Origin: an uncultured virus (IMG/VR IMGVR_UViG_3300021843_000436)
Taxonomy: Duplodnaviria > Heunggongvirae > Uroviricota > Caudoviricetes
Virus record (IMG/VR): IMGVR_UViG_3300021843_000436
Length of the DNA: 20,000 nucleotides
Direction: 5' to 3' (one strand)
In this document: in pieces, positions 1-14,682 of the stretch
Position numbering within the stretch: position 1 is the stretch's first letter
How the letters are laid out: each line of letters opens with the position of its first letter
Notes under the pieces: generated by a model
The model's input: the letters and a program-made list of their open reading frames with translations, nothing else
What the model was told of the DNA's origin: nothing
The model's database searches: none
Program-made: the position numbers and the translations under genes

Positions 1-159
1 ACACTCCCTATGGGTCCTCATGATCCTCTTCAGAGCAGCATCATAGCTCTCCCTTTTATGAGCCAAATCAGCTAACTCATCTCTGGTGTCAAAGGACACT
101 TCTATGCTAGTCCTGGGGCCTCTAGGCTCCAGGGCGGTGGGTTTATCTTTGGTAGTCAA
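1..159 (-). CDS. Small ribbon-helix-helix-like DNA-binding protein (3' end runs off the window; not in the ORF track)
   Basis: Open frame from TTG at 159, with GGAGGT 7 nt upstream (alternative GTG at 180): MTTKDKPTALEPRGPRTSIEVSFDTRDELADLAHKRESYDAALKRIMRTHREC. TSIEVSxxTRxxLxxL...ESYDxxLxR matches the pattern of archaeal RHH/antitoxin-like proteins. Confidence 0.7.
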   Translation of the reverse strand, partial: MTTKDKPTALEPRGPRTSIEVSFDTRDELADLAHKRESYDAALKRIMRTHREC

Positions 160-193
160 TGTTTTGACCTCCACATCCACAGAGACACCCTTC

Positions 194-245
194 CTATATA
201 AGTTTTATGGAAACTATGGCATAGCTGGAAAAAGCTCAAATACAC
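194..245. promoter_or_regulatory. Divergent promoter region with an operator-like variant (minus strand CCATAG-TTT-CCATAA, 205-219)
   Basis: Minus strand reads ccatagtttccataaaacttatatagg (TATA-like TTATATA). Plus strand has AAAAGCTCAAATAC about 25 nt before the ATG at 267, resembling AAAAGCTATAAATAC at 1345. Confidence 0.5.
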
Positions 246-266
246 TTAATTCCTATAGAATAGCTG

Positions 267-917
267 ATGACACGAACTGATGAAAATTTTAATGTGCTTC
301 AGGAGACTGTGCCACATGGGATCTCAGCCTCCAGAATCCATGCCTGGATGTTTTGCTCCAGGAGCCACCAGCTGAAATATGACATGGGCCTCCCAGGAAT
401 CACAGGACCTGCAGCCAGGATAGGTGTGAAGATGCATGATAGAATAGCCCAGGCCCTGCAAAATGGCACTGAGCCCCATCTGCCCGGTAAATGGCTGGCC
501 AACTATCATGAGATGTGCCAGGACCTGCAGCTCTCAGATAACCTGCTGATAGAAAAGCAACTGGAGGGGCAGGCCCAGGGAGAGGCCATCCTGGGCTATT
601 TGGATTTGATAGACCTTGATCAATGTTTCATCTTAGACTGGAAGACTGGCAAAGTGCATGGCTATCCTGTCCAGGCTTACATCTATAGCATGCTGGTGGA
701 TCAGCTCCTGGGTGAGCCTTTGCCCATGTATTATGCTTACATCAAGCATGGAAAATTGATCCCCACCACTAAGGAAGATTTGATCAAAGGGAGAAGAATC
801 TTCCAGAGATTTGTTAATCGCGACTCCAGATATTTACCATGTTTTAATGGCGAATCCAATAAGTGCTTAAAATGCAGCTACAGGGTGCCCTGTGCTATGG
901 TTTGTCAGGGCCTTTAG
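267..917 (+). CDS. Cas4/AddB/RecB-like PD-(D/E)XK nuclease with probable Fe-S cysteines
   Basis: ISASRI..FCSR N-terminus, G..MH, E..L.G....G.LDL..DWKTG, Q..IY, and C-terminal CLKCSYRVPC cluster. Confidence 0.85.
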   Translation: MTRTDENFNVLQETVPHGISASRIHAWMFCSRSHQLKYDMGLPGITGPAARIGVKMHDRIAQALQNGTEPHLPGKWLANYHEMCQDLQLSDNLLIEKQLEGQAQGEAILGYLDLIDLDQCFILDWKTGKVHGYPVQAYIYSMLVDQLLGEPLPMYYAYIKHGKLIPTTKEDLIKGRRIFQRFVNRDSRYLPCFNGESNKCLKCSYRVPCAMVCQGL

Positions 918-1016
918 GCCCTTCTTCCTTTTCTCTGTGTGACTTTTTGATAATTAGGCCAAACCTCCAGATGGATTCCTGGAGGCCAGGTATAAAAACC
1001 AGCATCAGTGATGGCC

Positions 1017-1324
1017 TGGCAGGGGTCAAACATCGAACTTTACGGAGTTCACACCGTTATTTCGATATGCAGAGACACCTGGCGGGGGTGGCAGGGGTAC
1101 CCCTCCCCTAACCTTTACTATACTCTCCCTCCTATACTATTTTCCTTACTCTTCTAATAGAGGAGGGGTACCCCTGCCATGTCTGCCAGGCAGCTCCTGT
1201 TATTGAAATAACGACGTGAACTGTGTAAAACCTAGAGATTGACCCCTGCCAATAGATAGCAATAGACACTATTTTGATTTAGAATAAAATTTGCCCCGCC
1301 CTTTCTGGCAGGGGTGGCAGGGGT
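1017..1324. repeat. 93-bp imperfect inverted repeat (1017-1109 / 1159-1251) with TGGCAGGGGT iterons; candidate replication origin
   Basis: The arms align without gaps (68/93 identical by hand count). TGGCAGGGGT at 1017, 1089, 1306 and 1315 (+) and 1170, 1242 (-), with a variant at 1080. Palindrome AGGGGTACCCCT at 1093 and 1164. The spacer 1110-1158 has no G on the + strand. Confidence 0.85.
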
Positions 1325-1344
1325 GGTCCTCAAAGACTTTTCTA

Positions 1345-1383
1345 AAAAGCTATAAATACCATAGTAACTATGGTATAAGTGGA
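1345..1383 (+). promoter_or_regulatory. Archaeal promoter with operator palindrome (copy 1)
   Basis: AAAAGC TATAAATA CCATAG-TAA-CTATGG TATAAGTGGA; ATG at 1389. Confidence 0.85.
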
Positions 1384-1388
1384 TAGCT

Positions 1389-1523
1389 ATGAAAGCATGC
1401 ATTGGCTGTGGAAGGGATATGACCACCAAGAAAATTGAAGGCTGGGTCCCTGGGAAGGGATTCCTGTGCAATGAATGTATTCAGAAAACTGACGCGAAGG
1501 AGGCAATCCATGCCCATTGGTAA
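1389..1523 (+). CDS. Small CxxC...CxxC zinc-finger protein, 44 aa (not in the ORF track)
   Basis: MKACIGCGRDMTTKKIEGWVPGKGFLCNECIQKTDAKEAIHAHW; lies directly downstream of promoter copy 1 and overlaps the start of the next gene. Confidence 0.75.
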   Translation: MKACIGCGRDMTTKKIEGWVPGKGFLCNECIQKTDAKEAIHAHW

Positions 1524-1803
1524 AAAGATATTATTTCCTCATGGGAAGACGGTGATCACTCCTGCAGCTCTGGAGGTCCTGCAGGAGCTGGACATCATCC
1601 AGCTCCTGGGATGGCACCTAACTGGAGACTGGAGTCAGATGTCTGAGGCTGACAGGGCTGCTAATGCCCAGGCCCTGGAGAATGGCTCCAGGATCTTCAG
1701 CTCCTATGAGGTGAAGGGCCAAAACATCTGGGTCATCACTGATGCTGTGGGTGAGGATGGACAGAGGGCTAGCACCTGCATTCTATTGCCTGGAGAATAC
1801 TGA
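1510..1803 (+). CDS. Conserved plasmid/phage-associated hypothetical protein (GDW...D..AN..AL...RI.S.Y...T.ILLP.EY family); likely start 1510 rather than 1435
   Basis: Characteristic motifs FPHGKTVITPAA, H..GDW, IWVIT and TCILLPGEY. GGAGG precedes the ATG at 1510. Confidence 0.75.
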   Translation: MPIGKKILFPHGKTVITPAALEVLQELDIIQLLGWHLTGDWSQMSEADRAANAQALENGSRIFSSYEVKGQNIWVITDAVGEDGQRASTCILLPGEY

Positions 1804-1960
1804 ATTGATCTAATATACTAGAGAAAGGAAAAGGTGATTTGAGGGAATTGTTGATGAGTTATGATGTATCTTCTGGTGTTTTTTGCACTCAATTGATTGA
1901 AGTGATACTATTTTAGGAAAAGCATGATCCCCAAGTAAAACGGAAGGATTTGAATTAAAT

Positions 1961-3082
1961 TCATAAAATTGGAATGTCAGATTTTTTCAATCCATCTTTT
2001 GTTTTGAAATATTCTGAAAGCTCTCCGTTTCTGATGAATTCCCTCGATTTGCTGAATTCATTAGAACTTTGATAGTATTCATGAAGCCGATTTGCTGAAT
2101 TGAACACTTGATTTGGGTATTCTTCACAGCAATCGCTATAAGAAGCTATGAAATCGTCTGTATTTTTGCCCTTGCATATAGGGCAGTCACAATTTAATGA
2201 AGTTCCAAAATCTATCCAATCTTGGAATCTATGGAAAGCTAAAGGAATTGGATCAAAGCGTTTCGTAGATCCTATTGGTTTAGGACTGAGTATTTCGCTT
2301 CCTGTTCTTGGAGGAACATAACGGCCAATTCTTACGCTAAAAGAGTCTATACCCCATTTCTGCAGTAAATGCATGGTCGATGTAGGATTTGTCCTAGCGA
2401 GTTCACGAGGAACTCCTGACATTTGGAGAAGCACATTAGTCTCTCTATTTTCCCATAGGAGGCGATAATTTTGAACATTTTTATGGATTGGTCTGTATAT
2501 TAATCCAATAGTATGTATTTGATCTGTCTCAGAATGTTCTAGTAATGCCAAGAACCTTTCATGAAAAACATCGATATCAAGCCCCATATCCAAATAGATT
2601 AACGGTTCTCGATTCTCTGACAAGACTTCTTCAGCAAAACTTTCTGCAATTTCTTCAAAATCTGGCGCAGAAGGAGGAATATTTGGTATGCTGATAAAAT
2701 CCAGATTGCTCATACGTTGAAGCTCTAATAATTGCTTGATACTGCTATCATTTAGATTTGTGCTGGACGGCAGCTGTGGGTAATATCGTTTTATTGTATA
2801 ATCCATTTTATCTGAATAGAAGTCTATAGTCCTTTTCCTGTTATAAAAAGACCCATTTTCTTCCATGAATTTTTTCCAGTTATCACTATAAAATTGTCCG
2901 ACAATTTCAGATAATTCATTATCCAAAGGCGGTTCAAAAGGTAACTTAGCTTTATATTGGAATTCGGATGAAGTTACCGCCCTGTTGGGTGTCTTAAAGG
3001 TGCCACGATCTGTAATTATAGATAACGCTCTCCCTCCAAAACGATCTAATTCACCCTCAATAGATATACGTGTGATTCTCAT
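1961..3082 (-). CDS. Divergent tRNA-guanine transglycosylase (TGT)-fold protein with Zn site; likely start 3082 (MRITRISIEG)
   Basis: N-terminal TDRGTFKTP resembles TGT TPHGxIxTP; GIDSFS corresponds to TGT GxDMFD; C-terminal CDCPIC...H Zn motif. The ATG overlaps the upstream stop (TAATG). Confidence 0.65.
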   Translation of the reverse strand: MRITRISIEGELDRFGGRALSIITDRGTFKTPNRAVTSSEFQYKAKLPFEPPLDNELSEIVGQFYSDNWKKFMEENGSFYNRKRTIDFYSDKMDYTIKRYYPQLPSSTNLNDSSIKQLLELQRMSNLDFISIPNIPPSAPDFEEIAESFAEEVLSENREPLIYLDMGLDIDVFHERFLALLEHSETDQIHTIGLIYRPIHKNVQNYRLLWENRETNVLLQMSGVPRELARTNPTSTMHLLQKWGIDSFSVRIGRYVPPRTGSEILSPKPIGSTKRFDPIPLAFHRFQDWIDFGTSLNCDCPICKGKNTDDFIASYSDCCEEYPNQVFNSANRLHEYYQSSNEFSKSREFIRNGELSEYFKTKDGLKKSDIPIL

Positions 3083-4044
3083 TATGCCCTCTTCCGTGCC
3101 CAATTAGGAAGCACCTTTTCTTTTATTCTAGATTCTATAGTATAGCCTTGATATTTCTTATAGACATCTTTTAGAATACCATCATTTCCAAGCTCATCCA
3201 CACCTCTTCTCCATGAACGTAGGTCTTCTTTCAAAGCATCTGGCAATGAATTATAAATTCTTCCAGCCTCCATTTTTCCCTTCTCTGTAAGGATGAAGCT
3301 TTCTTTATCAGATGAACGCTTCCCCTTTATAATGATTAAACCTTGCCGCTCTAAGGAATATAATGATTGATCTATATCAAAACTATAAGGGCCATAATAG
3401 TAGGGAATAAAATTTGGGGATATTGCAGGGACATTAAATTCCCTGAGTTTTTCTTTAAATAATAAGAATGATGCTTTCATAAGGCTGATAGCCCCTTTGA
3501 CCGGTCTTTTTGATGAACATAGCAGCACTAGAATAAGCTCTGTCGGATCAAGCGGGCGAATGCTAAATCCTTTTAAAATTTCTCTAATTTTTGGGAGCGA
3601 TTTCTCACTAAAATAAACCATTCCACAATTAGGGCATCCAAATCCGTCGAACTCTCCAAATACCTCTCCTGATATCTCTAAAGGGTATATGCCAGGCTGC
3701 AAGTTTGCTTTTTCGCATCGAGAGCACAAGTCTTTTCGTCTATTTCGTCGCATGTACCGGTTTTGGCGATAAATTTTATCTTTTACTGAATGGTTGTTGT
3801 TACCTTCTTTCCATGTTGTTATAACATTGAAATGACATGGCTTATTGTCCGCTATTACAACGACACATCCTTGCTGATACTTATCACCATCGCCATTATC
3901 ATTATTTGATTTCGTTCCACTAACTATGGCATCCCTTATATCCCCCTCGCTTAAGCTATCATTAATCATTTCAATTATAGCATGGAAAGATAAACTGAGT
4001 TGGCATCTGATTTTCTCTACAGCAATCTGGCTTTCGAGATGCAT
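3082..4044 (-). CDS. Three-domain fusion: DUF4258-like domain, YgiT/MqsA-type Zn ribbon, and SocA/Panacea/YwgA-like winged helix
   Basis: SFHAIIEM..DSLSEGDIRDAI..G...VITTW; CSRC...GCPNCGMVYFSEKS; VKG...LMKASFLL...FIPYYYGPYSFDI...L...GLI...FILTEKG. Confidence 0.7.
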   Translation of the reverse strand: MHLESQIAVEKIRCQLSLSFHAIIEMINDSLSEGDIRDAIVSGTKSNNDNGDGDKYQQGCVVVIADNKPCHFNVITTWKEGNNNHSVKDKIYRQNRYMRRNRRKDLCSRCEKANLQPGIYPLEISGEVFGEFDGFGCPNCGMVYFSEKSLPKIREILKGFSIRPLDPTELILVLLCSSKRPVKGAISLMKASFLLFKEKLREFNVPAISPNFIPYYYGPYSFDIDQSLYSLERQGLIIIKGKRSSDKESFILTEKGKMEAGRIYNSLPDALKEDLRSWRRGVDELGNDGILKDVYKKYQGYTIESRIKEKVLPNWARKRA

Positions 4045-4349
4045 CGGAACTCGTGAATACTCTCCTACTATTTATCCTCATTCAATGATTTCATTGCGAC
4101 ACCTTTTTCATTCTCATTTCATATAACAACCCCTTCCACTCAATTTGCGTTTTAGTATTCTATGGAAAGAGAGGAAGGCTACGGGTTTAAAAGCGTAAGT
4201 CTCATGCGCGAAAGTCCTTACCTATCCGATTTTTAAAAACCCTATGGCACCAGCACAGGATAACTGCTACCACGCTTGATTTCTCTCATAAGAATGTAAA
4301 GCACATAATGGCTAGGTTTTGTATGGAGCATAAGTTCTTTAATGCAAAC

Positions 4350-4385
4350 CTATAAATACCATAGTTTCTATGGAATAAGTGGAGG
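4350..4385 (+). promoter_or_regulatory. Archaeal promoter with operator palindrome (copy 2)
   Basis: C TATAAATA CCATAG-TTT-CTATGG AATAAGT GGAGG; 31/34 identical to 1350-1383; ATG at 4393. Confidence 0.85.
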
Positions 4386-4392
4386 CCATAGC

Positions 4393-4758
4393 ATGGACAT
4401 TAAGGCATTCACTACCTATCTAAAAGCCAGTCAGCTTGGAAGCCTGCTGGATGAAGCCTATGGAGCTGGGAAAACTGAGTCTGAGGCACCCAGGCTCTTT
4501 GCCGTTTATGAAAGCTACCAGAAGGGAGACCTGAATCTCCAGGAGATGGCAAAGGAGATGAATCTCACCACTCTGGGTCTGGATTCTGAGAAGATTAAAA
4601 GATGGCTCCCTAAGCTGGTGCCCAGACATGCCCTTGGCTGCAAGGTCCAGGTAGTGGAGATCACTCCCAGGACTAAAGGCTTTGAAGATGAGGCAAAGGA
4701 CTGGGCAGCCAGAGGTGGCCAAATCAAGGACATTAAGGGAGGAGAGCTAACAATATGA
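4393..4758 (+). CDS. Hypothetical protein, possible HTH; likely start 4393 rather than 4342
   Basis: GGAGG before ATG 4393; the 4342 start would run through the promoter. SYQKGDLNLQEMAKEMNLT resembles a UPF0175-like HTH. Confidence 0.65.
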   Translation: MDIKAFTTYLKASQLGSLLDEAYGAGKTESEAPRLFAVYESYQKGDLNLQEMAKEMNLTTLGLDSEKIKRWLPKLVPRHALGCKVQVVEITPRTKGFEDEAKDWAARGGQIKDIKGGELTI

Positions 4759-5288
4759 AACAACTCACTGAGACTGATGCAAAGGTTTTGGCTGGCATAA
4801 GTGGAGCAAAGGTCATTGTGGAGGTCATTGCTGCCTCTGAGCAGCCAACTGAACCTCTTTTTATGAGGCTTCACTATGTCAATAACAGAGAGGGCCAGGA
4901 GTTTTATCAGAAGGAGCCCATGATCCTGGTGCCTCTGGACTATCTGGTGGAGAAAATTAACTATGCCTGCTTTATGTCTGCAGCCCTGGGAGCTGACATC
5001 CTTCTCCAGGTCTCTGGACCAAAGGGATTCACAGATGAGCTGGAGGCTGCTTTTAAGTCTCTGGTGCCTCTCATGAGCCAGCAGTATGGTCTGACTGTAA
5101 TGGACACTTTCACTGAAGAAGTCCAGGAAGAGGACCCCTCTGCTGAAGCTCAGAGGCTGGGCAGGGAGATAGTGGAGAAGGCTCTGGGAAGGAGACTCCC
5201 TCCAGGAGCTGAGGTCCAGATCCTTAAGCTCACAGGAAGCCAGCAGGGAGGCCACTGTGACTGTCCAGATTGTGCTGGCCACAGATAA
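4755..5288 (+). CDS. Hypothetical protein with C-terminal HCDCPDC metal-binding motif
   Basis: ATGA overlap with the upstream gene, purine-rich RBS, backbone-like codon usage. Confidence 0.75.
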   Translation: MKQLTETDAKVLAGISGAKVIVEVIAASEQPTEPLFMRLHYVNNREGQEFYQKEPMILVPLDYLVEKINYACFMSAALGADILLQVSGPKGFTDELEAAFKSLVPLMSQQYGLTVMDTFTEEVQEEDPSAEAQRLGREIVEKALGRRLPPGAEVQILKLTGSQQGGHCDCPDCAGHR

Positions 5289-6933
5289 GCTGGTCAGGAA
5301 TTATCTGATCGTAAGAGGTCAGGAAGATGAGATCTGGAAAGCCAAATCTCATCTTTCCAGGCTGGGCTTTGTTTGGCAGCCTGATAAGAAATACTGGTTT
5401 AGGCTCTTTGATTTAGAGATCGTCAGAAAGCTGATGGACTGGAAACAGGCTGATCTGACTCCTAAACTGCTGAAGTTCTATCAGACAGAGACTATGAAGA
5501 ATACTCCCACCAGGGAGTTTGTTAGCACTTTCAGGCCAGACATGCTGATGACATATCAAATCCAGGGAGTGGAGACAGCACAGAAGGCAGGAAATTTCCT
5601 CTTTGCTGATGACATGGGCCTGGGAAAGACAGCTCAGACTTTGAAAATAGCAGAGGAGCTGGGCTGCAGAACCCTGGTCATCTGCCCCAGCACTTTGGTG
5701 GATGAATGGGGCTCCCAGATAAAGAAGTTTACTGAGTCCGAGACCGTCCTCATTAAGGGCTCCTGGCCCGTCAGAGCAAAGCTTTGGGAGGTCTGGAAGT
5801 CCTGTCATCCAGTTCATTATGTGGTCATGTCCTGGGACAGCCTGAGGAATAAGAAGGATCTGGCTTCTGCTCAGGATTACTGCAGGGATGGCCTCATCAT
5901 CTTTGATGAGATTACAAAGGGAAAGAATGCCCAGGCTCAGAGGTCAAAGGCTGCAGCTTCTCTGAAGGCCAGGAGGGTCCTGGGGATCACTGGCTCTCCA
6001 ATTGAGAATAATTTAAAAGAGCTGTGGCACATTTTGAGACTGGTCAGGCCAGAGCTTTTCCCTAACTATGAGAGGTTTGCTAACACCTTCATGATTCTGG
6101 AAGAGAAAAACTTTGGTGGCTATAACTTCAAGGACATTGTAGGCTATAAAAATCTGGATGTACTGAAGCAGATCATAGCTCCCTATTATATCAGGAGACT
6201 CAGGACAGAGGTCCTGCAGCTGCCACCCAGCAGCACTGTGGTTAGAAGAGTGGATCTATCAGATCAGCAGCAGGAGATAGAGCAGCTCCTTTTGAAAGCT
6301 TCTCAGGAGGCTTTTAATATGGATAGGATGGAGCTGGTGCTGAAATACTTCACCTATGGGATGGAGAATTTCATCAGCCCCTGCCTGCTCCCACAGGGAT
6401 GGACTCCAGATGAGAACCTTCTGCAGGAGGAGCAGCTCTTAAAACTCATTCAGGAGGCTTCAAAGGACCCCACTCCCAGGGAGTCTGAGGTCCTGGAAAT
6501 CCTGAAGGAATCCAGCCCTAACAAAATCATAGTCTTCTCAGGCTTCAAAAAGGCTCTGGAGAGACTGGCTGGTTTTGTCCAAGAGCCTATCTCCTGGCTG
6601 ACCTCTGGGGTGGATGTCCAGGCTGAGCTGGCCACCTGGAAGGGAGAGGGCTCCAGGCTGCTTTTCATGACATCTGCAGGAGCTATGGGTCATAATCTTC
6701 AGGAGCAGTGCTCCATGATGGTGGTCCTCAGCTCCCTGCATAACCCCAGGATGATGGACCAGCTCCTAGCCAGGATCTCCAGAATGGGCCAGAAGAAGCC
6801 TGTCACCTACTATGTTCTGGATTCTGACAGCCAAATAGAGCAGAAGCTCCATGTAAACACTGCAGAGAAGAATGAGCTATCTGAGAATGTTTTCAGGAAT
6901 ACTGATCTGGCAAAGATGGTGATGTGCCAATGA
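5257..6933 (+). CDS. SNF2/SWI2-family (SF2) helicase/ATPase
   Basis: YQ..GV, ADDMGLGKT (Walker A), LVICPSTL..W, IIFDEITK (Walker B variant), ITGSPIENNLKELW, YYIRRLR, KIIVFS, SAGAMGHNLQ, QLLARISRMGQ. N-terminal LGFVWQPDKKYW domain. Confidence 0.93.
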   Translation: MTVQIVLATDKLVRNYLIVRGQEDEIWKAKSHLSRLGFVWQPDKKYWFRLFDLEIVRKLMDWKQADLTPKLLKFYQTETMKNTPTREFVSTFRPDMLMTYQIQGVETAQKAGNFLFADDMGLGKTAQTLKIAEELGCRTLVICPSTLVDEWGSQIKKFTESETVLIKGSWPVRAKLWEVWKSCHPVHYVVMSWDSLRNKKDLASAQDYCRDGLIIFDEITKGKNAQAQRSKAAASLKARRVLGITGSPIENNLKELWHILRLVRPELFPNYERFANTFMILEEKNFGGYNFKDIVGYKNLDVLKQIIAPYYIRRLRTEVLQLPPSSTVVRRVDLSDQQQEIEQLLLKASQEAFNMDRMELVLKYFTYGMENFISPCLLPQGWTPDENLLQEEQLLKLIQEASKDPTPRESEVLEILKESSPNKIIVFSGFKKALERLAGFVQEPISWLTSGVDVQAELATWKGEGSRLLFMTSAGAMGHNLQEQCSMMVVLSSLHNPRMMDQLLARISRMGQKKPVTYYVLDSDSQIEQKLHVNTAEKNELSENVFRNTDLAKMVMCQ

Positions 6934-7718
6934 AAGGCAGCTATGTGATGCTGTTGCCTCAGAGGAAAGGGAATATCCTCCTCCCTCTGGAGGTGGCCCA
7001 GAAGCTCCAGGATCTGCCAGTCCATGACGAACATGGACAGAAGGTGGGCTTCATTCAGGAGGTCAGGAAGGGCCAGAATGAGGGATACTGGGAAGCAGTG
7101 GTCAAAGTCACCAGCCCTGCATTCATGGATAGGGTGGGCTTTTCTGTGGCTGACCTTTCTCCTATTTTCGATATGCAGAGCACCAAATATGATCTAATGA
7201 TCGAAGAGGTGGCCCTGGTCTCAAAATATGACCAGCTGGATGAGGCCACAAAGGAAGGAGACCAGAACTCTATCAAAGTCCTTGAAAATGAGATCAAATC
7301 TCATGAGAGAAAGCAAAAACGACTGCAGCAGAAGCAGCAGCAGATAAAATCAAGTCCAATGTTTAAGGGAGGAATTATTAAAATGGCGGAAGGAAAATCA
7401 GTCATGTATCTATCACAGAAGACTTTGAGAAGTGTCACAGAAAGACCAACAAACCCACTGGCAGCCAGCCTGTTTTCAGAGTGTTGCGCTGAAGTGGTGA
7501 AGCTTCTGGGCACTGCTGCTGTGGTGGCCTCCAATGAGGATGACCTCACCATCTTAAAACCCTCCCATGTGGCCAGGGGCCTGCAGATGGTCCTGCCAAA
7601 GAATGTGGCCAATGAGATCATCAGGGATGTTTTCAAGGGCAAAGTACCTGACGCCCTTATTGAAACCCTAACAAGGGAGCAGCCTTTGACAGTTAAGCCA
7701 GCTCAGAGGAGTGAGTGA
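6930..7718 (+). CDS. Multidomain protein: possible prohead-protease-like N-terminus, coiled coil and C-terminal histone-fold-like domain
   Basis: ATGA overlap with the SNF2 stop. N-terminus has PVHDEH..VG..GFSV..IEEVALV. C-terminus YLSQKTLRSV..AASLFSECCAEVVKLLGTAAVVASNEDDLTILKPSHVARGL follows histone-fold helix spacing. In-frame internal ATG at 7383 with GGAGG upstream. Confidence 0.55.
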   Translation: MKGSYVMLLPQRKGNILLPLEVAQKLQDLPVHDEHGQKVGFIQEVRKGQNEGYWEAVVKVTSPAFMDRVGFSVADLSPIFDMQSTKYDLMIEEVALVSKYDQLDEATKEGDQNSIKVLENEIKSHERKQKRLQQKQQQIKSSPMFKGGIIKMAEGKSVMYLSQKTLRSVTERPTNPLAASLFSECCAEVVKLLGTAAVVASNEDDLTILKPSHVARGLQMVLPKNVANEIIRDVFKGKVPDALIETLTREQPLTVKPAQRSE

Positions 7719-8016
7719 AATGGAGCACTTTCTTTCTGTCCTGGTAGCCTATCTCACTGGAGCCACCCTGGTGGAAATGTATGGCCCCTGGGCTTTTTAT
7801 CACCTCCTGGTCTGGATCTGGGATAAGTTCTATGGTCTGAGCTGGTGGGTTTTGAGTGGAGCCTGGTGGATTCTTATTAACATCCTCCTGCCCCTGGTCT
7901 GGATCTCTGCAGGTATTTCTCTCATCTATCTCACCCATAGGGGCTGGCAGGGAAAGATGAGGGCCTGGGCCTGGGAGAAGGATCACACCTCAAAGCTCAG
8001 GAGAGTAGGTGAGTGA
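7711..8016 (+). CDS. Trp-rich integral membrane protein
   Basis: Two or three hydrophobic segments followed by a basic C-terminus. Confidence 0.7.
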   Translation: MSEMEHFLSVLVAYLTGATLVEMYGPWAFYHLLVWIWDKFYGLSWWVLSGAWWILINILLPLVWISAGISLIYLTHRGWQGKMRAWAWEKDHTSKLRRVGE

Positions 8017-8369
8017 GCATGGAGAGAAAAAGCTTCAGGGATATGCCTCAGGTGGAACTGGTGCTGATCCCAGAGCTGGGACAGCCCAGGGCTCTCCCTT
8101 ATCCCTCTGTGGAGGAGGCAAAATTCTCAGCCAGAGGAATCTCCAGGAAAGGACCTCAGAAGTATGTGGCCTGGTATGTCCTGGATGATGACGGCCTGAT
8201 CCTGGCCTCTCATGGCTATTCTTTGCCCAGTCTGAAGTGTCTCAGACCAGATGCCCACACTGAGAGGGACCTGCAGAGAGTCCAGGAGAGGGGCCTTAAC
8301 AGAGATGAAAAGGCCCAGCTCCTGGTGGATCAATTGGCAAATGAAAGGAGAGCAGCTGCATGGAATTGA
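8013..8369 (+). CDS. Hypothetical protein
   Basis: GTGA overlap within the operon; backbone-like codon usage. Confidence 0.7.
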   Translation: MSMERKSFRDMPQVELVLIPELGQPRALPYPSVEEAKFSARGISRKGPQKYVAWYVLDDDGLILASHGYSLPSLKCLRPDAHTERDLQRVQERGLNRDEKAQLLVDQLANERRAAAWN

Positions 8370-9145
8370 TAGCCAGTATAGGGCAGGCTGTGGATGCCTT
8401 AGAAGGCATGAAGAAAAAAGTGGTCACCTTCCAGGTCCTCTCAGGGATAGATGGTGCTCTGTCCAATATGTGGACCATCACTCACAATTTTATAGTAGCT
8501 CAGAACGGGCTGGGATATGATCCCAGCCAGCTCCCTGCTTATCAGGAGGCTAAATTCCTCTGGCTGAAGATGCTACTGCTAGGGATGCCAGTTAAGCCTG
8601 CTCAGTCTCCTTTCTGTAGCTATTTCAGTGAGAGATGTGATCAGTGTGGCTTTGTTAAAAATCATGGCTCCTGCTATGACTTTGGATCTGACTATTATAA
8701 ATTGATCACCTCTCTGGCTAAAATGATTAAGCTCTCTAATTATGAGCCAGAGCCCTGGACAGAGTATGTCAAACTGAGCCCAGTCACAGCACAGGCTTAT
8801 GATATTTACACTTTCAATATGATGGAGGCAGCTCAGACCATTGAATCTCACATAACCTCATGGAGGAAGATCTTCAAGGCTACCAAGTCTTTTGAGGAAA
8901 TAATGCAGGATAGAGTCATGTTCATGAATCTGATCCTTAATGATCTTCCTCTGGAGATTTGGGACACTTATGCTGGCACTTGGAGGATCGCAGCTTTTCA
9001 GGAGATGCCTATTTCCTACCAATTCCCATTAGAGGGAGTTAAATTCACTGATCACGAAATAAACACCACATTAGGTCTGAGGAAGTTCAGGGATGAGACT
9101 TTGACTGCCCTAAAGAATTACTGGAAGCCAGGAGAGACATTTTAA
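8360..9145 (+). CDS. Hypothetical protein with central Cys cluster (PFC...RCDQC...GSC)
   Basis: 261-aa ORF in the operon, with RBS. Confidence 0.8.
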   Translation: MELIASIGQAVDALEGMKKKVVTFQVLSGIDGALSNMWTITHNFIVAQNGLGYDPSQLPAYQEAKFLWLKMLLLGMPVKPAQSPFCSYFSERCDQCGFVKNHGSCYDFGSDYYKLITSLAKMIKLSNYEPEPWTEYVKLSPVTAQAYDIYTFNMMEAAQTIESHITSWRKIFKATKSFEEIMQDRVMFMNLILNDLPLEIWDTYAGTWRIAAFQEMPISYQFPLEGVKFTDHEINTTLGLRKFRDETLTALKNYWKPGETF

Positions 9146-9390
9146 TGGTTGATCATTTAGAGGAGTTTAAAAAGGGTCTGCAGGCCATTAGGAATTATCT
9201 GGATGAGAAGGCTCCAGACTGGGTGACTGTCACTTTGAAGGTGGAGATAGAGCCCTGCCACTCCAGGGTGGAGATGCTGGAATTAGTAGAGCAGACGGGT
9301 CCAGCCTCCTTTAATGTCACCCAGTTTCCTCCACTCAGCATAAAGACCTGTGACGTAACCATGAGAGTGGGCATTCTGGAGGCACTTTAA
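9145..9390 (+). CDS. Hypothetical protein
   Basis: TAATG overlaps at both ends. Confidence 0.75.
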   Translation: MVDHLEEFKKGLQAIRNYLDEKAPDWVTVTLKVEIEPCHSRVEMLELVEQTGPASFNVTQFPPLSIKTCDVTMRVGILEAL

Positions 9391-10055
9391 TGAGTGGCCT
9401 GGAAAACTTTTCCATTTTTGATATCCTGGGAATGCCTGAGCAGAACCTGAAGGCCCAGGTGAAGAGATCGCTGGACTTCTGGCTGAAGGAGGTCAGAATG
9501 GTCAAAGATCCTGGAGAGGCCCTGGCCCTGTTGAATCAGGCTGAGGAATGGACTGCAGAGCAGAAGATCACTGTGATAAAGGGAATGCTTACCCTGAATC
9601 TGGTCTCCTTTCTGACCTCCAATAAGGTGGACTTCCTGGACTATGATGGCTGGAAGAAGTACATGCAGGAGAATCCCTTTGTCCCAGCTCAGACTCTGGA
9701 GATCCCTAATGATAAGGTAGTGGATCTCTCTGTCCAGGCCATGAAGGTCCTGAGGCCAAAGGTCACCAGGGACATGATGAGAAGTGGCAGGGCTCCAAAG
9801 CCACAGAAGCTCCTGGGCCAGCTGGTGGAGATCTGGATCAAAGAGGATGGAGAAAAGAAGCTCTTCTTCATCGGCTGGGCTATTTATGCCACAGTAATGA
9901 GGACCCAGGCTCAGGCAGGGATGTCTATTCCCATTGAGACAAAAGCAGTGGCAGAAGCCATCAGACCTGAGAAGCCACTTAAACCCTTGGATGAATCTGG
10001 ACAGTTATGTGATGTAAATGACATAATGGCCAGATTAAAGAAGATTAGAGCTTAA
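9390..10055 (+). CDS. Hypothetical protein
   Basis: 221-aa ORF with TAATG coupling and GGAGG RBS. Confidence 0.8.
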   Translation: MSGLENFSIFDILGMPEQNLKAQVKRSLDFWLKEVRMVKDPGEALALLNQAEEWTAEQKITVIKGMLTLNLVSFLTSNKVDFLDYDGWKKYMQENPFVPAQTLEIPNDKVVDLSVQAMKVLRPKVTRDMMRSGRAPKPQKLLGQLVEIWIKEDGEKKLFFIGWAIYATVMRTQAQAGMSIPIETKAVAEAIRPEKPLKPLDESGQLCDVNDIMARLKKIRA

Positions 10056-10103
10056 ACAGGGAATTATGGAATGTTATTTTAACAAATAGGGACATGATAA
10101 GGG

Positions 10104-10247
10104 TTAAATATGAGAATAGTAGGTCTTAAAGTGTCTGCTGGCAAAATGGCCTCCACTATTTCAGCAGACTTTGCCTGGAGGAGAAATTCTATTCTCACTC
10201 CCTGTCCCTCCAGGCTCCTCCCTTAGATTCTAAAGGAAGTATAAAAT
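10104..10247 (+). promoter_or_regulatory. Putative nrdD promoter (TTAAATA at 10104) and structured 5' leader
   Basis: Stems GTCTGCTG(10133)/CAGCAGAC(10162) and GCCTGGAGG(10173)/CCTCCAGGC(10207). Confidence 0.45.
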
Positions 10248-12725
10248 ATGCAGGATTTAAAAGTTATTACCTCCCAGGAGCGGATCAGCCCTTTCAACAG
10301 GGCAAAAATAGCACAGGCTTTGATCAGAGAGACCCAGGAGCTGGCTCCCAGGTTCTTTAATAAGCCAGGACTCACCCAGTCAGAAGCAGAATCAGTGGCC
10401 CTCTCAGCAGAGAAGACTCTCAGGACCATGCCGTATCCTTGGCTCACAGCTCCACTGATCAGAGAAGTGGTCAATGCTGAGCTTCTTCTAAGGGGCCACA
10501 TCATCCACAGAAATATCCTCAGCAGGGTAGGGACTCCCATTTATGATGCCTGCATGATGGATGTAGGCAAAGGCAAAGAGGATAAGGAGAATGCAAACCT
10601 GCAGGATAATGCAGAGACCAGTCATAAGAAAAAGGCTGATAGGATGTCAAAGGAGCAATATCTCCTGCTTCTGCCTCCACAGCTCTCTCAGAGGCACCTG
10701 GAGGGAGATCTCCATATTCATGACCTGGAGTACTTTGGCACCAGGCCCTTCTGCCAGGACCATGATCTCAGGTACTTCTTCTATTATGGTCTGATGCCAG
10801 ATGGCAAAGGCCAGAAGGCAGCAGTGGCAGGCCCTGCTAAAAGGCCAGAGGTGGCCATCCTTCATGCAGTGAAGGCTCTGGGCAGTGCCCAGACGAATTT
10901 TGCAGGAGGCCAAGGCTATTATAATTTCCTCACCTTTGTGGCTCCCTACCTGGAGAAGCTGCCTTATTCGTCAAAGGACCCTAAAATAATGAGCATCAAA
11001 CAGCTCATGCAGATGTTTGTCTATGAAATGACCCAGATGATGGTGGCAAGAGGAGGTCAGCTGGTCTTTAGCAGTGTCCAGCTCACTCCAGGGGTGCCTA
11101 AGGTCTGGAAGAACAGGCCAGTGGTGGCTTATGGGAAGATCTTTGATGGAGTCCATGAGGAGAGAAAGTGGACCTATGGAGAACTGGAGCCTGTGGTCAG
11201 GCTGGCCTTTAAAGCTCTGATGGAGGTCTTCCTGGAGGGAGATGCCTGGGGCAAACCCTTCAGCTTCCCAAAGCCAGAGATAGTGCTCTCAAATGAGTTT
11301 ATGTCTGATCCTCAGGCAGAATACTGGAAGGATCACCAGTATTATGGCATGAGAGTGCCTACCAGAGAAGAGCTTTATATCCTGGTGACAAAGCTGGCCA
11401 TAATTTATGGATCTCCATATTTTGATAATGAGATCCCTGAGTATAGGAATGCTGATGGTGAAGGAATCACATGCTATCAGTGTTGTAGTTATCAATTTGC
11501 AGCTAGACCAGAAGATGATCCCCTCTTTAATGCAAAAATGGATTTTGAAAATGGTCAGCACTTCAGCATGGGTGGTTATCAGGTAGTGACTGGAAACATG
11601 CCCAGAGCTGCAATGAGAGCTAAAGAGATCTTGAAGGATTTCGCTATTCCATCAGACCTGAAAGAAAAGATTACATTGCAGGCATTTATGCAAGAAGTTA
11701 AGGGCCTCATGAATTCTGCAGTGGAGATCTTCCAGCAGAAGAAGGTCTGGATGGATCAGGCCCTGGCAGCTGACAGGATTCCCTTTGCCACCCAGACACC
11801 CAGGGACCCCTACTCTGGAAAGGCTGGACAGCCCCTGGTGGACTTCTCTCAGCTGGTCTTTGCCTTTGGCATTGTGGGTATGAATGAGGTCTCAAAGATC
11901 CTGACTGGCCATGAGCTGGGAGACTATGAGGAGGGTGGCTGGGACTTCTCCATGAAGGCGGTCTATTTGATGAAACAATACTGCCAGGAGCTGTCTCAGA
12001 AGCATGGCATCCACATGGTCCTAGCCAGGACCCCTGCAGAGACAGTGGCCCAGAGGTTTGCAGCTCTGGATCTGGACTCTGAATTTAAGGAGATGGCCCT
12101 GCAGGTAGTGAATGGCAATAAGGAGGAGGCTTTGAAGCTTCTGCCTCAGACTTTAGATGTCCCTGTTTATTATACAAATGGAGCTATGATAAAGATGTCC
12201 ACTCCCAGGACAGTTAAATTCCAGGTGGAGAGGGAGGGCCAATTCTTCCCACTGGTGGATGGAGGAAACATCATGCACCTCTTTGTTGATGATGTCTTCC
12301 CATTAGTATCAGCCCACTTTGACAGACAGGCTGAGCTGCAGCAGAGGGTCAGGGAATACAGAGAGGCTGGAGATCAGAAGACGGCCAGGCACTATGAGAA
12401 GGAGATCATCAAGGGAAAGACAGAGGATAGGCTCCTCACCTCCTGGGCCAGTGATCTCTGGGAGGTCATCAAGAACATAGCCATCACCTCTGATGTGGGT
12501 TATTTTGCCTTTACCAGGGATATCAGCATCTGCCTGGACTGTGCTTCCACCATAAAGGGAAGGGTGAAGAAGTGCCCTGTTTGTGGTTCTTCTGAGGTGG
12601 ATGTGATCACCAGGGTGACAGGCTACTGTCAGGCTGTAAGTGGATTTAACAGAGCTAAAAAACAGGAAGTAGAGGATCGATATAGGCATAACTCTGAGAG
12701 TTTTGGCATGAAGGTGGTGGGCTAA
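10248..12725 (+). CDS. nrdD: Anaerobic (class III) ribonucleoside-triphosphate reductase with N-terminal ATP cone, methanogen type
   Basis: FNRAKIAQALIRET ATP cone, GDLHIHDLEY, TRPFC, QTNFAGGQG, FSFPKPE, CYQCC, GIVGMNE, RTPAET, YYTNG, GGNIMH, CLDC...CPVC Zn site, RVTGY glycyl-radical motif. Confidence 0.97.
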   Translation: MQDLKVITSQERISPFNRAKIAQALIRETQELAPRFFNKPGLTQSEAESVALSAEKTLRTMPYPWLTAPLIREVVNAELLLRGHIIHRNILSRVGTPIYDACMMDVGKGKEDKENANLQDNAETSHKKKADRMSKEQYLLLLPPQLSQRHLEGDLHIHDLEYFGTRPFCQDHDLRYFFYYGLMPDGKGQKAAVAGPAKRPEVAILHAVKALGSAQTNFAGGQGYYNFLTFVAPYLEKLPYSSKDPKIMSIKQLMQMFVYEMTQMMVARGGQLVFSSVQLTPGVPKVWKNRPVVAYGKIFDGVHEERKWTYGELEPVVRLAFKALMEVFLEGDAWGKPFSFPKPEIVLSNEFMSDPQAEYWKDHQYYGMRVPTREELYILVTKLAIIYGSPYFDNEIPEYRNADGEGITCYQCCSYQFAARPEDDPLFNAKMDFENGQHFSMGGYQVVTGNMPRAAMRAKEILKDFAIPSDLKEKITLQAFMQEVKGLMNSAVEIFQQKKVWMDQALAADRIPFATQTPRDPYSGKAGQPLVDFSQLVFAFGIVGMNEVSKILTGHELGDYEEGGWDFSMKAVYLMKQYCQELSQKHGIHMVLARTPAETVAQRFAALDLDSEFKEMALQVVNGNKEEALKLLPQTLDVPVYYTNGAMIKMSTPRTVKFQVEREGQFFPLVDGGNIMHLFVDDVFPLVSAHFDRQAELQQRVREYREAGDQKTARHYEKEIIKGKTEDRLLTSWASDLWEVIKNIAITSDVGYFAFTRDISICLDCASTIKGRVKKCPVCGSSEVDVITRVTGYCQAVSGFNRAKKQEVEDRYRHNSESFGMKVVG

Positions 12726-12726
12726 A

Positions 12727-14088: not shown

Positions 14089-14122
14089 ATATGTGGATGC
14101 AACTTGACATTTAGAGGAGTTC

Positions 14123-14254: not shown

Positions 14255-14283
14255 TTTTTAGTTTATCCATAACTTCTTATTTA
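14255..14283 (+). terminator. Probable archaeal oligo-T terminator
   Basis: TTTTTAGTTT and further T-runs between the stop codon and the next promoter. Confidence 0.4.
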
Positions 14284-14324
14284 ACTACTGTCTTTCTAGC
14301 TACTCATGGTTATCTTTGAGTAAT

Positions 14325-14360: not shown

Positions 14361-14363
14361 CCA

Positions 14364-14678: not shown

Positions 14679-14682
14679 AATT

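What the first reader, a model, noticed from the sequence alone, without database searches (positions are those of the whole stretch)
1961..4044. Candidate new toxin-antitoxin/defence cassette: DUF4258-like, MqsA Zn-ribbon and Panacea-like fusion coupled to a catalytically altered TGT-fold protein
Seen: two minus-strand genes coupled by TAATG at 3080-3084, in an AT-rich, CpG-normal island within a CpG-depleted genome. Gene 1 has three recognisable blocks. Gene 2 has a TGT-like start and a CxCxxC..H site, but no DSGG motif, and GIDSFS where TGTs have GxDMFD. Established: DUF4258 and YgiT/MqsA Zn ribbons are usually separate adjacent toxin-antitoxin genes; GPYS winged-helix (SocA/Panacea-like) domains neutralise diverse toxins; the DSGG and DMFD aspartates are required for base exchange by TGT/DpdA. 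Inference: a repurposed TGT fold (nucleic-acid binder, sensor or toxin) is controlled by a fused toxin-antitoxin protein and was captured by a virus for superinfection exclusion, inter-virus conflict or addiction.
Basis: partly seen in the sequence, partly recalled or inferred. Interest (0 to 1): 0.8.

Follow-up and report, generated by a model that had tools for sequence, protein, structure and literature searches.

The report
Dead TGT-fold protein with toxin-antitoxin partner
A methanogen virus carries a foreign two-gene cassette in which a tRNA-transglycosylase-shaped protein without its catalytic residues is coupled to a fused toxin-antitoxin-adaptor protein, a pairing that recurs in archaeal restriction-modification loci and looks like an undescribed defence or addiction module.

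Summary
Two minus-strand genes (3082-4044, 320 aa; 1961-3082, 373 aa) overlap in TAATG and lie in a GC 0.37, CpG o/e 0.75 island inside viral DNA with CpG o/e 0.06. A 98%-identical provirus in genome G001 carries other genes in the same slot (1220-4345). Gene 2 folds confidently as a TGT barrel with the Zn subdomain (ArcTGT Z 23.3). It lacks the DSG acid/base Asp and has Ser where TGTs have the nucleophile Asp, as do all 120 relatives compared. It belongs to a mainly archaeal family that no searched library models (338 representatives). Gene 1 is DUF4258 (RelE/ParE-type toxin fold) + four-Cys ribbon + a winged helix nearest to the DarG toxin-binding domain. New here: the winged-helix protein accompanies the TGT-like gene in 8/8, 11/11 and 13/14 loci. 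It is fused or adjacent to different toxin-antitoxin sets (DUF4258/Zn ribbon; UPF0175/DUF3368-PIN; PIN). The module often sits inside type I R-M or DUF1156-DUF499-helicase loci. Best reading (0.45): the TGT-like pseudoenzyme plus winged helix is a conserved sensor/regulator core controlling a swappable RNase toxin. No biochemical function is shown.

The parts
3082..4044 (-). Gene 1, 320 aa: DUF4258-like domain + four-Cys Zn ribbon + winged-helix/helical C-terminal domain
   Evidence: ORF. 38 relatives. Model pLDDT 80.9 with a disordered linker at residues 83-104.
3808..4005 (-). DUF4258-like (BECR/RelE-ParE-type toxin fold) domain, about residues 14-79
   Evidence: PF14076 E 1.6e-3 in the window protein. 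27 of 35 relatives at E<=0.01, best 7.7e-8. Strand-helix-helix-four-strand order in the model.
3607..3732 (-). Four-cysteine Zn ribbon, about residues 105-146 (C107, C110, C137, C140)
   Evidence: Cys columns invariant or nearly invariant. Weak profile matches: DUF7479 0.013, YgiT finger 0.067, MqsA_antitoxin in 1 of 35.
3085..3552 (-). Winged-helix plus helical extension, residues 165-320. This is the part conserved next to every TGT-like gene.
   Evidence: DarG C-terminal domain 7yk3_D: Z 9.3, rmsd 4.6, 134 residues. DUF4364 in 21 of 35 relatives. PDC-M19A 2e-13. The HMM of A2 matches partner proteins only over about positions 132-314 in the wider family.
3080..3084 (-). TAATG stop/start overlap coupling gene 1 to gene 2
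   Evidence: Sequence read directly.
1961..3082 (-). Gene 2, 373 aa: TGT-fold protein (barrel + Zn subdomain) lacking the catalytic aspartates
   Evidence: Model pLDDT 89.4, pTM 0.90. Foldseek TGT E 8e-11. VIA-align: ArcTGT Z 23.3, TGT 22.5, QTRT2 21.1, DpdA 15.8, Cap10 15.1.
2336..2353 (-). G244-I-D246-S-F-S249: the counterpart of the TGT G-x-D-x-F-D strand, with Ser at the nucleophile position
   Evidence: Global hhalign against ArcTGT. Position 249 is S/A/T/C/G/L among the six commonest residues, which cover 114 of 120 family members; Asp is not among them. D246 is kept in 112 of 120.
2081..2191 (-). Zn site C298-x-C300-x-x-C303 ... H334
   Evidence: Invariant in 41 sequences. Aligned to the TGT Zn site with 94-96% probability.
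1220..4345 (.). Cargo slot of the (pro)virus. Flanks are 98% identical to genome G001 and the filling is unrelated.
   Evidence: CpG o/e 0.57 in the slot against 0.06 in the backbone.

Best explanation
The cassette is a horizontally acquired defence or addiction module of a so far undescribed, mainly archaeal type. Its constant core is a TGT-fold pseudoenzyme (gene 2) together with a winged-helix adaptor (the C-terminal domain of gene 1).

The adaptor carries or neighbours an interchangeable toxin-antitoxin set. Here that set is a DUF4258 RNase-type toxin domain fused to a Zn-ribbon (MqsA-type) antitoxin element.

Proposed working, all inferred:
1. In the resting state the Zn ribbon masks the DUF4258 domain in cis, and the winged helix is docked on the TGT-like protein.
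2. The TGT-like protein keeps the nucleic-acid-binding Zn subdomain but cannot exchange bases. It acts as the sensor or scaffold for a nucleic acid or base signal of an invader, or for failure of the neighbouring restriction system.
3. On the trigger the toxin domain is released and arrests the cell.

On a virus the module would exclude competing viruses or stabilise the provirus.

Shown: gene structure, folds, loss of the catalytic residues, the conserved pairing, the swapping of toxin-antitoxin sets, the restriction-modification neighbourhoods, and the foreign origin.

Not shown: any binding, toxicity, trigger or protection.
For: Fold and dead site.
- TGT-type chains stand well above generic TIM barrels (Z 21-23 against 13.2 or less).
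- the Zn subdomain is homologous to that of TGTs (94-96% probability).
- global alignment at 97% probability over 301 columns. There is a gap at the DSG motif, N134 at the base-recognition Asp and S249 at the nucleophile Asp.
- Asp is not among the six commonest residues at position 249, which cover 114 of 120 relatives.
- PMC10164549 (passages) states that the three aspartates are invariant in TGT and DpdA.

Constant pairing. A gene 1 relative lies directly upstream in 8 of 8 genome and viral loci and in 11 of 11 metagenome loci with enough upstream DNA. In the wider family the winged-helix partner is adjacent in 13 of 14 regions, in upstream, downstream or divergent order.

Swappable toxin-antitoxin sets.
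- Five loci: winged helix fused to UPF0175 (Pfam 9.2e-12 in one; BLAST 4e-20 to 6e-9 from that one's C-terminal part to the other four), followed by a DUF3368/PIN protein. UPF0175 is reported only with that PIN family (PMC5499597, passages).
- Two loci: a small separate ORF before a Zn-ribbon winged helix. One of the two ORFs gives a weak DUF4258 match (E 0.023); the other gives none.
- Four loci: a Zn-ribbon protein of unknown type.
- Two loci: PIN.
- DUF4258 is a BECR-fold toxin family, and 17 DUF4258-MqsA fusions are on record (PMC11980606).

Defence setting.
- Between HsdM and HsdS of a type I operon (L063), and beside HsdS-HsdM (L064).
- With a DUF1156 methylase in L014 and L069-L072, joined by DUF499 (L069, L072) and/or a SNF2 helicase (L014, L070, L072).
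- Next to a TIR-NACHT gene (L013)..
- Patchy spread: 13 of 401 genomes and 13 of 121 genera.

Foreign cargo..
Against: - No experiment bears on any step.
- The barrel part of the alignment to TGT rests on a forced global profile alignment with low per-column confidence. I could not inspect model coordinates, so the pocket may still hold a working site built from other residues. R18, R34, E40, Q122, R226, H238, D246 and E342 are nearly invariant.
- The association with restriction-modification genes was not tested against a background rate, and many loci come from related genomes.
- About half of the loci sit among housekeeping genes or transposases.
- Stop/start overlap in the order antitoxin then large protein is also what a plain pair with gene 2 as toxin would show.
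- One family member stands without a partner (L068).
- Homology between the small third proteins of groups A and D and the DUF4258 domain was not supported (hhalign probability below 1%).
Confidence: 0.45

Rival explanations
1. One reading: the TGT-like protein is itself the toxin or effector (for example a tRNA binder or an N-glycosidase acting on tRNA). It is neutralised directly by the Panacea/DarG-like winged helix of gene 1. The DUF4258-Zn-ribbon part is an extra regulatory layer.
For: The constant partner of the TGT-like gene is a domain whose nearest solved relative is the toxin-binding C-terminal domain of DarG (Z 9.3; NCBIfam DarG E 0.004). It also has weak Panacea matches. The order is partner first, then the TGT-like gene, with a TAATG overlap. 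The TGT fold binds tRNA, a common toxin target. Many polar residues are nearly invariant.
Against: The three catalytic aspartates are gone. The partner brings its own complete toxin-antitoxin set of changing type, which would be redundant. In three loci the TGT-like gene is transcribed divergently from its partner (L069-L071), which is unusual for a toxin and its antitoxin.
Confidence: 0.22
2. A 7-deazaguanine-linked enzyme or carrier. Gene 2 would work like DpdA (DNA) or Cap10 (protein-linked base) using other residues, and gene 1 would be its regulator or substrate.
For: DpdA and Cap10 are among the structural matches (Z 15.8 and 15.1). In three related archaeal genomes QueC lies directly upstream of the pair. 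Cap10 shows that TGT folds can be turned to protein substrates (preprint 10.1101/2025.04.06.647259, passages).
Against: That QueC is the only full-length QueC of each of the three genomes, hence the housekeeping one, and all three belong to one lineage. QueC was not found in the other loci that were Pfam-scanned, nor among the 23 ORFs of the window that were scanned. All three aspartates are missing. Cap10 lacks the Zn site, which this family keeps in about 72 of 120 members. No PADLOC or NCBIfam match to DpdA or Cap10 at E<=0.1.
Confidence: 0.1
3. A decoy subunit. Like eukaryotic QTRT2, the dead TGT-like protein would pair with the host ArcTGT, or compete for its tRNA, and so alter archaeosine modification during infection.
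For: QTRT2, a non-catalytic TGT paralogue, matches at Z 21.1. The Zn subdomain is kept. The gene is carried by a virus.
Against: Most family members are chromosomal, in restriction-modification or mobile settings, and are always found with the winged-helix partner. A decoy does not need such a partner.
Confidence: 0.06
4. An ordinary fused DUF4258-MqsA toxin-antitoxin gene that merely lies next to an unrelated gene of unknown role.
For: Fused DUF4258-MqsA genes exist on their own (17 in PMC11980606).
Against: The adjacency holds in 8/8, 11/11 and 13/14 loci, across partners whose identity to the window protein falls to about 20%, and across different toxin types.
Confidence: 0.05

Closest known systems
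tRNA-guanine transglycosylases (bacterial TGT, archaeal ArcTGT; Pfam PF01702) and DpdA
   Same: Barrel plus C-terminal Zn subdomain (Z 22-23 for TGT/ArcTGT, 15.8 for DpdA). The CxCxxC...H Zn site is aligned at 94-96% probability. Shared structural residues: R18, T31-P32, Q122, D128, G193, G244, D246.
   Different: No DSG acid/base Asp. Ser at the nucleophile position. Asn at the base-recognition position in the window protein. Pfam TGT scores 11.6 bits against a cut-off of 26.3. Only 5 of 99 family members match PF01702 at E<=0.01. No PUA or C-terminal tRNA domains.
QTRT2, the non-catalytic subunit of eukaryotic TGT
   Same: A TGT fold that has lost catalysis while keeping the Zn subdomain (Z 21.1).
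   Different: QTRT2 partners a catalytic paralogue for tRNA modification. Here the partner is a winged-helix/toxin-antitoxin protein and the setting is mobile or defence DNA.
Cap10 of type IV CBASS (with the QueC-like Cap9)
   Same: A TGT-family fold recruited into anti-virus defence and turned from tRNA to a protein partner (preprint 10.1101/2025.04.06.647259, passages). Structural match Z 15.1.
   Different: Cap10 lacks the Zn site and keeps base-reading Asp residues (the preprint names D73 and D122). No CD-NTase or Cap9 stands here. QueC adjacency is seen in one lineage only, and that QueC is the housekeeping gene.
Fused DUF4258-MqsA toxin-antitoxin genes (RelE/ParE superfamily; PMC11980606)
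   Same: An N-terminal DUF4258 domain followed by a Zn-ribbon antitoxin element in one polypeptide. Split two-gene forms also occur (L036-L038, L018, L062).
   Different: The DNA-binding half is a DUF4364/DarG-CTD-like winged helix, not an XRE helix-turn-helix. The gene is always coupled to a TGT-like gene.
UPF0175 - COG2405/DUF3368 PIN toxin-antitoxin pairs (PMC2701414, PMC5499597)
   Same: In five wider-family loci the same winged helix is fused to UPF0175 and followed by the PIN protein. This parallels the DUF4258/Zn-ribbon arrangement in the window.
   Different: This set is not present in the window itself. It serves as comparative evidence only.
Panacea (DUF4065, PanA) antitoxins and the DarG C-terminal domain
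   Same: A winged-helix-based domain that serves as a direct neutraliser of varied toxins. DarG CTD is the best structural match (Z 9.3).
   Different: The Pfam Panacea score is below the cut-off (15.7 against 25.7 bits), and only 2 of 35 relatives match. There is no macrodomain. NCBIfam DarG scores 16.4 bits against a cut-off of 250.
Backup RNase effectors inside BREX-related (DUF499 ATPase - N6-methylase - helicase) and type I R-M loci; PrrC in the EcoprrI locus (recalled)
   Same: A nuclease-type suicide effector placed inside a restriction-modification operon. PIN, HEPN and Schlafen effectors are described for BREX-related systems in PMC12839542 (passages).
   Different: In the passages read, that paper mentions TGT only for another system (BRC). 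It does not mention a TGT-like plus winged-helix pair with the PIN genes. PrrC is an ABC-ATPase-type anticodon nuclease; that comparison is from memory.

Membership tests
TGT / ArcTGT / DpdA base-exchange enzymes (PF01702) | (beta/alpha)8 barrel with a C-terminal Zn-binding subdomain | tested here: met
   Model pLDDT 89.4. Foldseek E 8e-11. ArcTGT: Z 23.3, rmsd 3.9, 309 residues.
TGT / ArcTGT / DpdA base-exchange enzymes (PF01702) | Zn ligands CxCxxC...H | tested here: met
   C298, C300, C303 and H334 are invariant in 41 sequences. They align to the TGT site at 94-96% probability.
TGT / ArcTGT / DpdA base-exchange enzymes (PF01702) | Profile score above Pfam's curated cut-off | tested here: not met
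   11.6 bits against 26.3, over the Zn region only. No PDB sequence match with the family profile at E<=10.
TGT / ArcTGT / DpdA base-exchange enzymes (PF01702) | General acid/base Asp of the DSG(G) motif | tested here: not met
   No DSG string in the protein. The global hhalign puts a gap there, after P102.
TGT / ArcTGT / DpdA base-exchange enzymes (PF01702) | Base-recognition Asp (Z. mobilis D156, DpdA D130) | tested here: inconclusive
   N134 aligns there in a low-confidence part of the global alignment. In 120 relatives the column holds D or E in 52.
TGT / ArcTGT / DpdA base-exchange enzymes (PF01702) | Nucleophile Asp, the second Asp of G-x-D-x-F-D | tested here: not met
   S249. The six commonest residues in that column are S, A, T, C, G and L, covering 114 of 120 relatives, and Asp is not among them. 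The nucleophile was identified as the Asp before Cys from the archaeal TGT alignment together with the C281 mutant names. The residue numbering is recalled.
Cap10 (type IV CBASS) | Operon with a CD-NTase and the QueC-like Cap9; TGT fold without the Zn site | tested here: not met
   No such Pfam families among the 23 window ORFs scanned or the neighbours in other loci. The Zn site is present. No PADLOC match at E<=0.1.
DUF4258 (PF14076; BECR-fold toxins of the RelE/ParE superfamily) | Profile match of the domain | tested here: inconclusive
   The window protein scores 19.2 bits against a cut-off of 25 (E 1.6e-3). 27 of 35 relatives match at E<=0.01, best 7.7e-8, and 15 of 38 carry a precomputed PF14076 label. 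So the family assignment is sound, but the window copy is below the curated cut-off.
DUF4258 (PF14076; BECR-fold toxins of the RelE/ParE superfamily) | Toxicity / RNase activity | not testable with these tools
   PMC11980606 says the family's activity is unknown.
MqsA/YgiT-type antitoxin | N-terminal four-Cys Zn ribbon | tested here: met
   C107, C110, C137 and C140 are conserved.
MqsA/YgiT-type antitoxin | Profile match and a C-terminal XRE helix-turn-helix | tested here: not met
   YgiT finger E 0.067, 13.5 bits against a cut-off of 20.2. MqsA_antitoxin matches 1 of 35 relatives. The C-terminal domain is a winged helix.
Panacea / PanA (PF13274) | Profile score above the cut-off | tested here: not met
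   15.7 bits against 25.7. 2 of 35 relatives match at E<=0.01.
DarG antitoxin | Macrodomain plus C-terminal toxin-binding domain | tested here: not met
   Only the C-terminal domain resembles it (Z 9.3). NCBIfam scores 16.4 bits against a cut-off of 250. There is no macrodomain.
Type II toxin-antitoxin module (general) | Adjacent co-transcribed toxin and antitoxin, mobile and patchy distribution | tested here: met
   TAATG overlap. 13 of 401 genomes. Island composition. Transposase, R-M and virus settings.
Type II toxin-antitoxin module (general) | Growth arrest by the toxin and rescue by the antitoxin | not testable with these tools
   Needs expression assays.

The most novel reading that the evidence does not exclude
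The TGT-fold pseudoenzyme is a dedicated sensor of invader nucleic acid. The most attractive candidate signal is 7-deazaguanine-modified, or otherwise restriction-resistant, DNA or tRNA. The sensor acts through the winged-helix adaptor to unleash a plug-in RNase toxin (DUF4258, PIN) as a second line of defence when the restriction-modification or BREX-related system in which it is embedded fails. Archaeal viruses have captured the module to fight rival viruses.
Probability: 0.15. Interest if true: 0.85.

Novelty: new variant of a known kind. Interest (0 to 1): 0.7.

Why it matters
TGT-fold proteins are known as base-exchange enzymes for tRNA (queuosine, archaeosine) and DNA (Dpd). Very recently one was shown to hold a protein-linked base (Cap10).

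A large archaeal family that keeps the fold and the Zn subdomain, has lost the DSG and nucleophile aspartates and often the third, and is tied to toxin-antitoxin parts inside restriction-modification loci would be a further re-use of this fold in immunity.

It would also add a case to the few in which a pseudoenzyme serves as the fixed core of a defence module with exchangeable effectors.

Archaeal defence systems and the accessory genes of methanogen viruses are poorly charted. This cassette gives a small, testable two-gene system.

Tried and rejected
- Complex prediction of gene 2 with gene 1 (after the queue was full): no answer, score 0.00. This is not evidence either way.
- Sequence search of PDB with the gene 2 family profile: no match at E<=10. 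With the gene 1 profile only designed repeat proteins, CTCF and MarR rows appeared, none informative.
- Local hhalign of the family against archaeal TGTs aligns only the Zn subdomain. The bacterial-type TGT group gave nothing in global mode.
- PHROGs, PADLOC and NCBIfam gave no match for gene 2, apart from a chance-level JetB row.
- Foldseek on the gene 1 model: nothing at E<=0.001.
- hhalign of the small third proteins (groups A, B, D) against the N-terminal half of gene 1: probability below 1%.
- QueC as a system part: rejected as a general feature.
- DpdA-type virus DNA modification: rejected. The aspartates are missing and none of the 23 window ORFs scanned is a preQ0 gene.
- Own assembly not held; G001 was used instead.
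- Earlier findings of the scan: nothing found.
- Expression: no RNA holder listed.
- Rfam: only chance hairpin rows below threshold.
- No tRNA genes in the window.
- Literature searches turned up no paper describing a TGT-like gene paired with a winged-helix/toxin-antitoxin protein. I judged this from listings and from passages of the papers named. Supplements of PMC12839542, PMC8832971 and PMC11980606 were not read and may list such neighbourhoods.
Full report
**1. What is there**

The window holds two minus-strand genes. Gene 1 is 3082-4044 (320 aa). Gene 2 runs from the ATG at 3082 to 1961 (373 aa). The minus strand reads GCATAATGAGA, so the TAA of gene 1 and the ATG of gene 2 share one base.

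All other long ORFs of the window lie on the plus strand. They encode a viral replication and nucleotide module: a Cas4-like PD-(D/E)XK nuclease, an SNF2 helicase, NrdD, dCMP deaminase and a DHH phosphoesterase.

The two genes form a composition island. GC is 0.37 and CpG o/e 0.75, against GC 0.49 and CpG o/e 0.06 in 4346-20000.

The window's own assembly is not held. Genome G001 (3.6 Mb, one contig) carries DNA 98% identical to window 1-1219 and 4346-8000, with an unrelated 3.4-kb filling between. That filling encodes a 464-aa repeat-rich membrane protein and a 477-aa protein. Gene 2 was not found in G001.

Housekeeping loci of G001 have CpG o/e 0.82-1.02, while its provirus DNA has 0.10-0.14. 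So 1220-4345 is an exchangeable cargo slot of a CpG-avoiding (pro)virus, and the cassette came from elsewhere. Contigs of anaerobic-digester metagenomes hold the stretch.

**2. Gene 2**

No library names it. Pfam TGT scores 11.6 bits over the Zn region only, and PHROGs, NCBIfam and PADLOC give nothing useful.

It has 57 close relatives, up to 81% identical. The alignment of 41 is strongly conserved.

The AlphaFold model is confident: pLDDT 89.4 and pTM 0.90. Foldseek finds TGT entries from E 8e-11, with TM 0.52-0.62. An independent all-against-representatives structural search gives the ranking below.

| Match | Z |
|---|---|
| ArcTGT (rmsd 3.9, 309 residues) | 23.3 |
| Bacterial TGT | 22.5 |
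| QTRT2 | 21.1 |
| DpdA | 15.8 |
| Cap10 | 15.1 |
| Generic TIM barrels | 13.2 or less |

The ESM Atlas agrees: its own clusters for this protein are 'hypothetical' and mostly archaeal, and the structural neighbours are TGT/TgtA at TM 0.68-0.69.

Profile-profile comparison used 13 archaeal TGT/ArcTGT sequences taken from related genomes.
- Local mode aligns the Zn subdomain at 94-96% probability.
- Global mode aligns 301 columns at 97% probability.

Structural hallmarks are shared: R18, T31-P32, Q122, D128, G193, G244, D246 and the Zn ligands. The catalytic residues are not:
- The DSG motif falls in a gap.
- N134 stands at the base-recognition Asp. This part of the alignment has low confidence.
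- S249 stands at the nucleophile Asp.

PMC10164549 (passages) states that these three aspartates are invariant in TGT and DpdA.

A full HMMER scan of 1.84 billion representatives finds 338 family members at E<=1e-3, 227 at E<=1e-10 and 70 at E<=1e-30.
- In 120 of them, position 249 is S, A, T, C, G or L in 114; Asp is not among the six commonest residues.
- D246 is kept in 112.
- About 72 keep the Zn cysteines.
- Of 99 members only 5 touch PF01702 at E<=0.01.

The family is therefore a distinct, unmodelled branch of the TGT fold that cannot use the canonical double-displacement chemistry.

**3. Gene 1**

The model (pLDDT 80.9) shows three parts joined by a disordered linker at residues 83-104.

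- The N-terminal part is DUF4258. The match is weak in the window copy (E 1.6e-3) but clear for the family: 27 of 35 relatives, best 7.7e-8.
- PMC11980606 (passages and the text of its Table 2) lists DUF4258 among BECR-fold toxins of the RelE/ParE superfamily. Its activity is unknown, and 17 DUF4258-MqsA fusions are recorded.
- The middle part is a four-Cys ribbon.
- The C-terminal part (165-320) is a winged helix with a helical extension. Its best solved match is the DarG C-terminal, toxin-binding domain (Z 9.3, rmsd 4.6, 134 residues), just above generic winged helices (Z 8.4 or less).
- Profile matches for this part are to DUF4364 (21 of 35), PADLOC PDC-M19A (2e-13) and the C-terminal end of a type I specificity-subunit model (3.5e-10). 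The match to Panacea is only marginal.

Split forms exist.
- In L036-L038 and L018 a frameshift in the linker gives a 107-aa DUF4258 ORF and a 223-aa ribbon-winged-helix ORF.
- In L010 an in-frame stop interrupts the DUF4258 domain.

**4. The pairing and its company**

A gene 1 relative lies directly upstream of the gene 2 relative in 8 of 8 loci from genomes and a viral contig. The same holds in 11 of 11 metagenome loci with enough upstream DNA; three more loci had none.

I searched 401 genomes of the phylum with the wide-family profile. It matched 13 genomes in 13 of 121 genera. One match is probably another TGT-type protein of 597 aa.

In 13 of 14 wider regions a protein matching only the winged-helix part of gene 1 is adjacent. 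It lies upstream, downstream or divergently transcribed.

Next to it stands a third, changing element.

| Loci | Partner and third element |
|---|---|
| L069, L070, L071, L073, L074 | Winged helix with a C-terminal UPF0175 domain (Pfam 9.2e-12 in one; BLAST 4e-20 to 6e-9 from that one to the other four), followed by a DUF3368/PIN protein |
| L072, L075 | A PIN protein (weak Pfam match, E 0.0035, in L072) |
| L062, L066 | A small separate ORF before a ribbon-winged-helix protein; L062's ORF gives a weak DUF4258 match (E 0.023), L066's gives none |
| L063, L064, L065, L067 | A Zn-ribbon protein of unknown type |

UPF0175 is reported only with that PIN family (PMC5499597; PMC2701414).

Thus the winged helix and the TGT-like protein are the fixed pair. 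Toxin-antitoxin sets of at least two well-recognised kinds are plugged onto the winged helix.

**5. Neighbourhoods**

Restriction-modification and defence settings:
- L063: the module sits between HsdM and HsdS of a type I operon.
- L064: beside HsdS-HsdM.
- L062: before a UvrD helicase and a DNA methylase.
- L069-L072 and L014: beside a DUF1156 methylase, joined by a DUF499 ATPase (L069, L072) and/or an SNF2/NOV_C helicase (L014, L070, L072). L015 has the helicase only.
- L041: before RadC and HsdR.
- L013: beside TIR-NACHT and HD-nSTAND genes.

The DUF499-methylase-helicase sets are the 'BREX-related' systems of PMC12839542. That paper describes PIN and HEPN backup effectors in such operons. 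In the passages I read it does not describe a TGT-like/winged-helix pair.

Other loci lie among housekeeping genes (ThiC and UvrB in L033 and L040) or transposases (L037).

QueC lies directly upstream in L011-L013. It is the single full-length QueC of each genome, and the three belong to one lineage.

**6. Reading**

The evidence fits a mobile defence or addiction module.

I favour a model in which the dead TGT fold, with the winged helix, is the conserved sensing or regulating core, and the small RNase-type toxin is the effector (confidence 0.45).

A 7-deazaguanine-linked activity (0.10), a decoy of host ArcTGT (0.06) and mere adjacency (0.05) are less likely.

**7. Limits**

- No function was tested.
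- The barrel alignment is of low confidence.
- I could not inspect model coordinates.
- The restriction-modification association has no background control.
- Related genomes inflate the counts.
- Complex prediction gave no answer.

Noticed in passing
window 4346-20000 (also 1-1219): Extreme CpG avoidance in the viral backbone: o/e 0.06 with TpG 1.35 and CpA 1.24. Housekeeping loci of the carrier genome G001 have CpG o/e 0.82-1.02. This suggests selection against a CG-containing restriction target, or a cytosine-methylation/deamination history that is specific to the virus.
   Followed up: partly
window 1039-1110 / 1158-1229: An imperfect inverted repeat with 72-nt arms (76% complementary) ends at the left edge of the cargo slot at 1219/1220. 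A related copy (86%) lies about 50 kb away in G001 (L003). It may be a recombination site or an end of the provirus.
   Followed up: partly
window 1435-1803 (+), probably from M26 at 1510: A small ORF inside the same slot, convergent with gene 2. It belongs to a family of roughly 90-115-aa phage and bacterial proteins automatically named 'type I restriction endonuclease subunit M family protein' (structure TM 0.88-0.91). It is a candidate anti-restriction protein. It was absent from all related loci.
   Followed up: partly
L009 1425-4231 (G001): In G001 the same slot holds a 464-aa protein with Thr/Gly/Ala/Ser-rich repeats and membrane segments, and a 477-aa protein that may be secreted (read by eye). 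These two were not scanned against any library. Like the window's cassette, this filling is AT-rich (GC 0.36).
   Followed up: no
L011 2589-3224, L012 6331-7038, L013 6352-7032: The only full-length QueC of three related archaeal genomes lies directly upstream of the gene pair, overlapping or within 5 nt of it. This may be chance insertion next to QueC or a link to 7-deazaguanine.
   Followed up: partly
L018 7136-8642 (viral contig): A second virus-borne copy is decayed. Gene 1 is split by a frameshift, and the gene 2 relative ends after about 206-213 residues.
   Followed up: partly
window about 1251: Contigs of runs X4 and X5 follow the window to 1251 and then continue with another sequence. 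That sequence differs from both the window and the G001 filling. It may be a third filling of the slot or the paralogous repeat copy.
   Followed up: no
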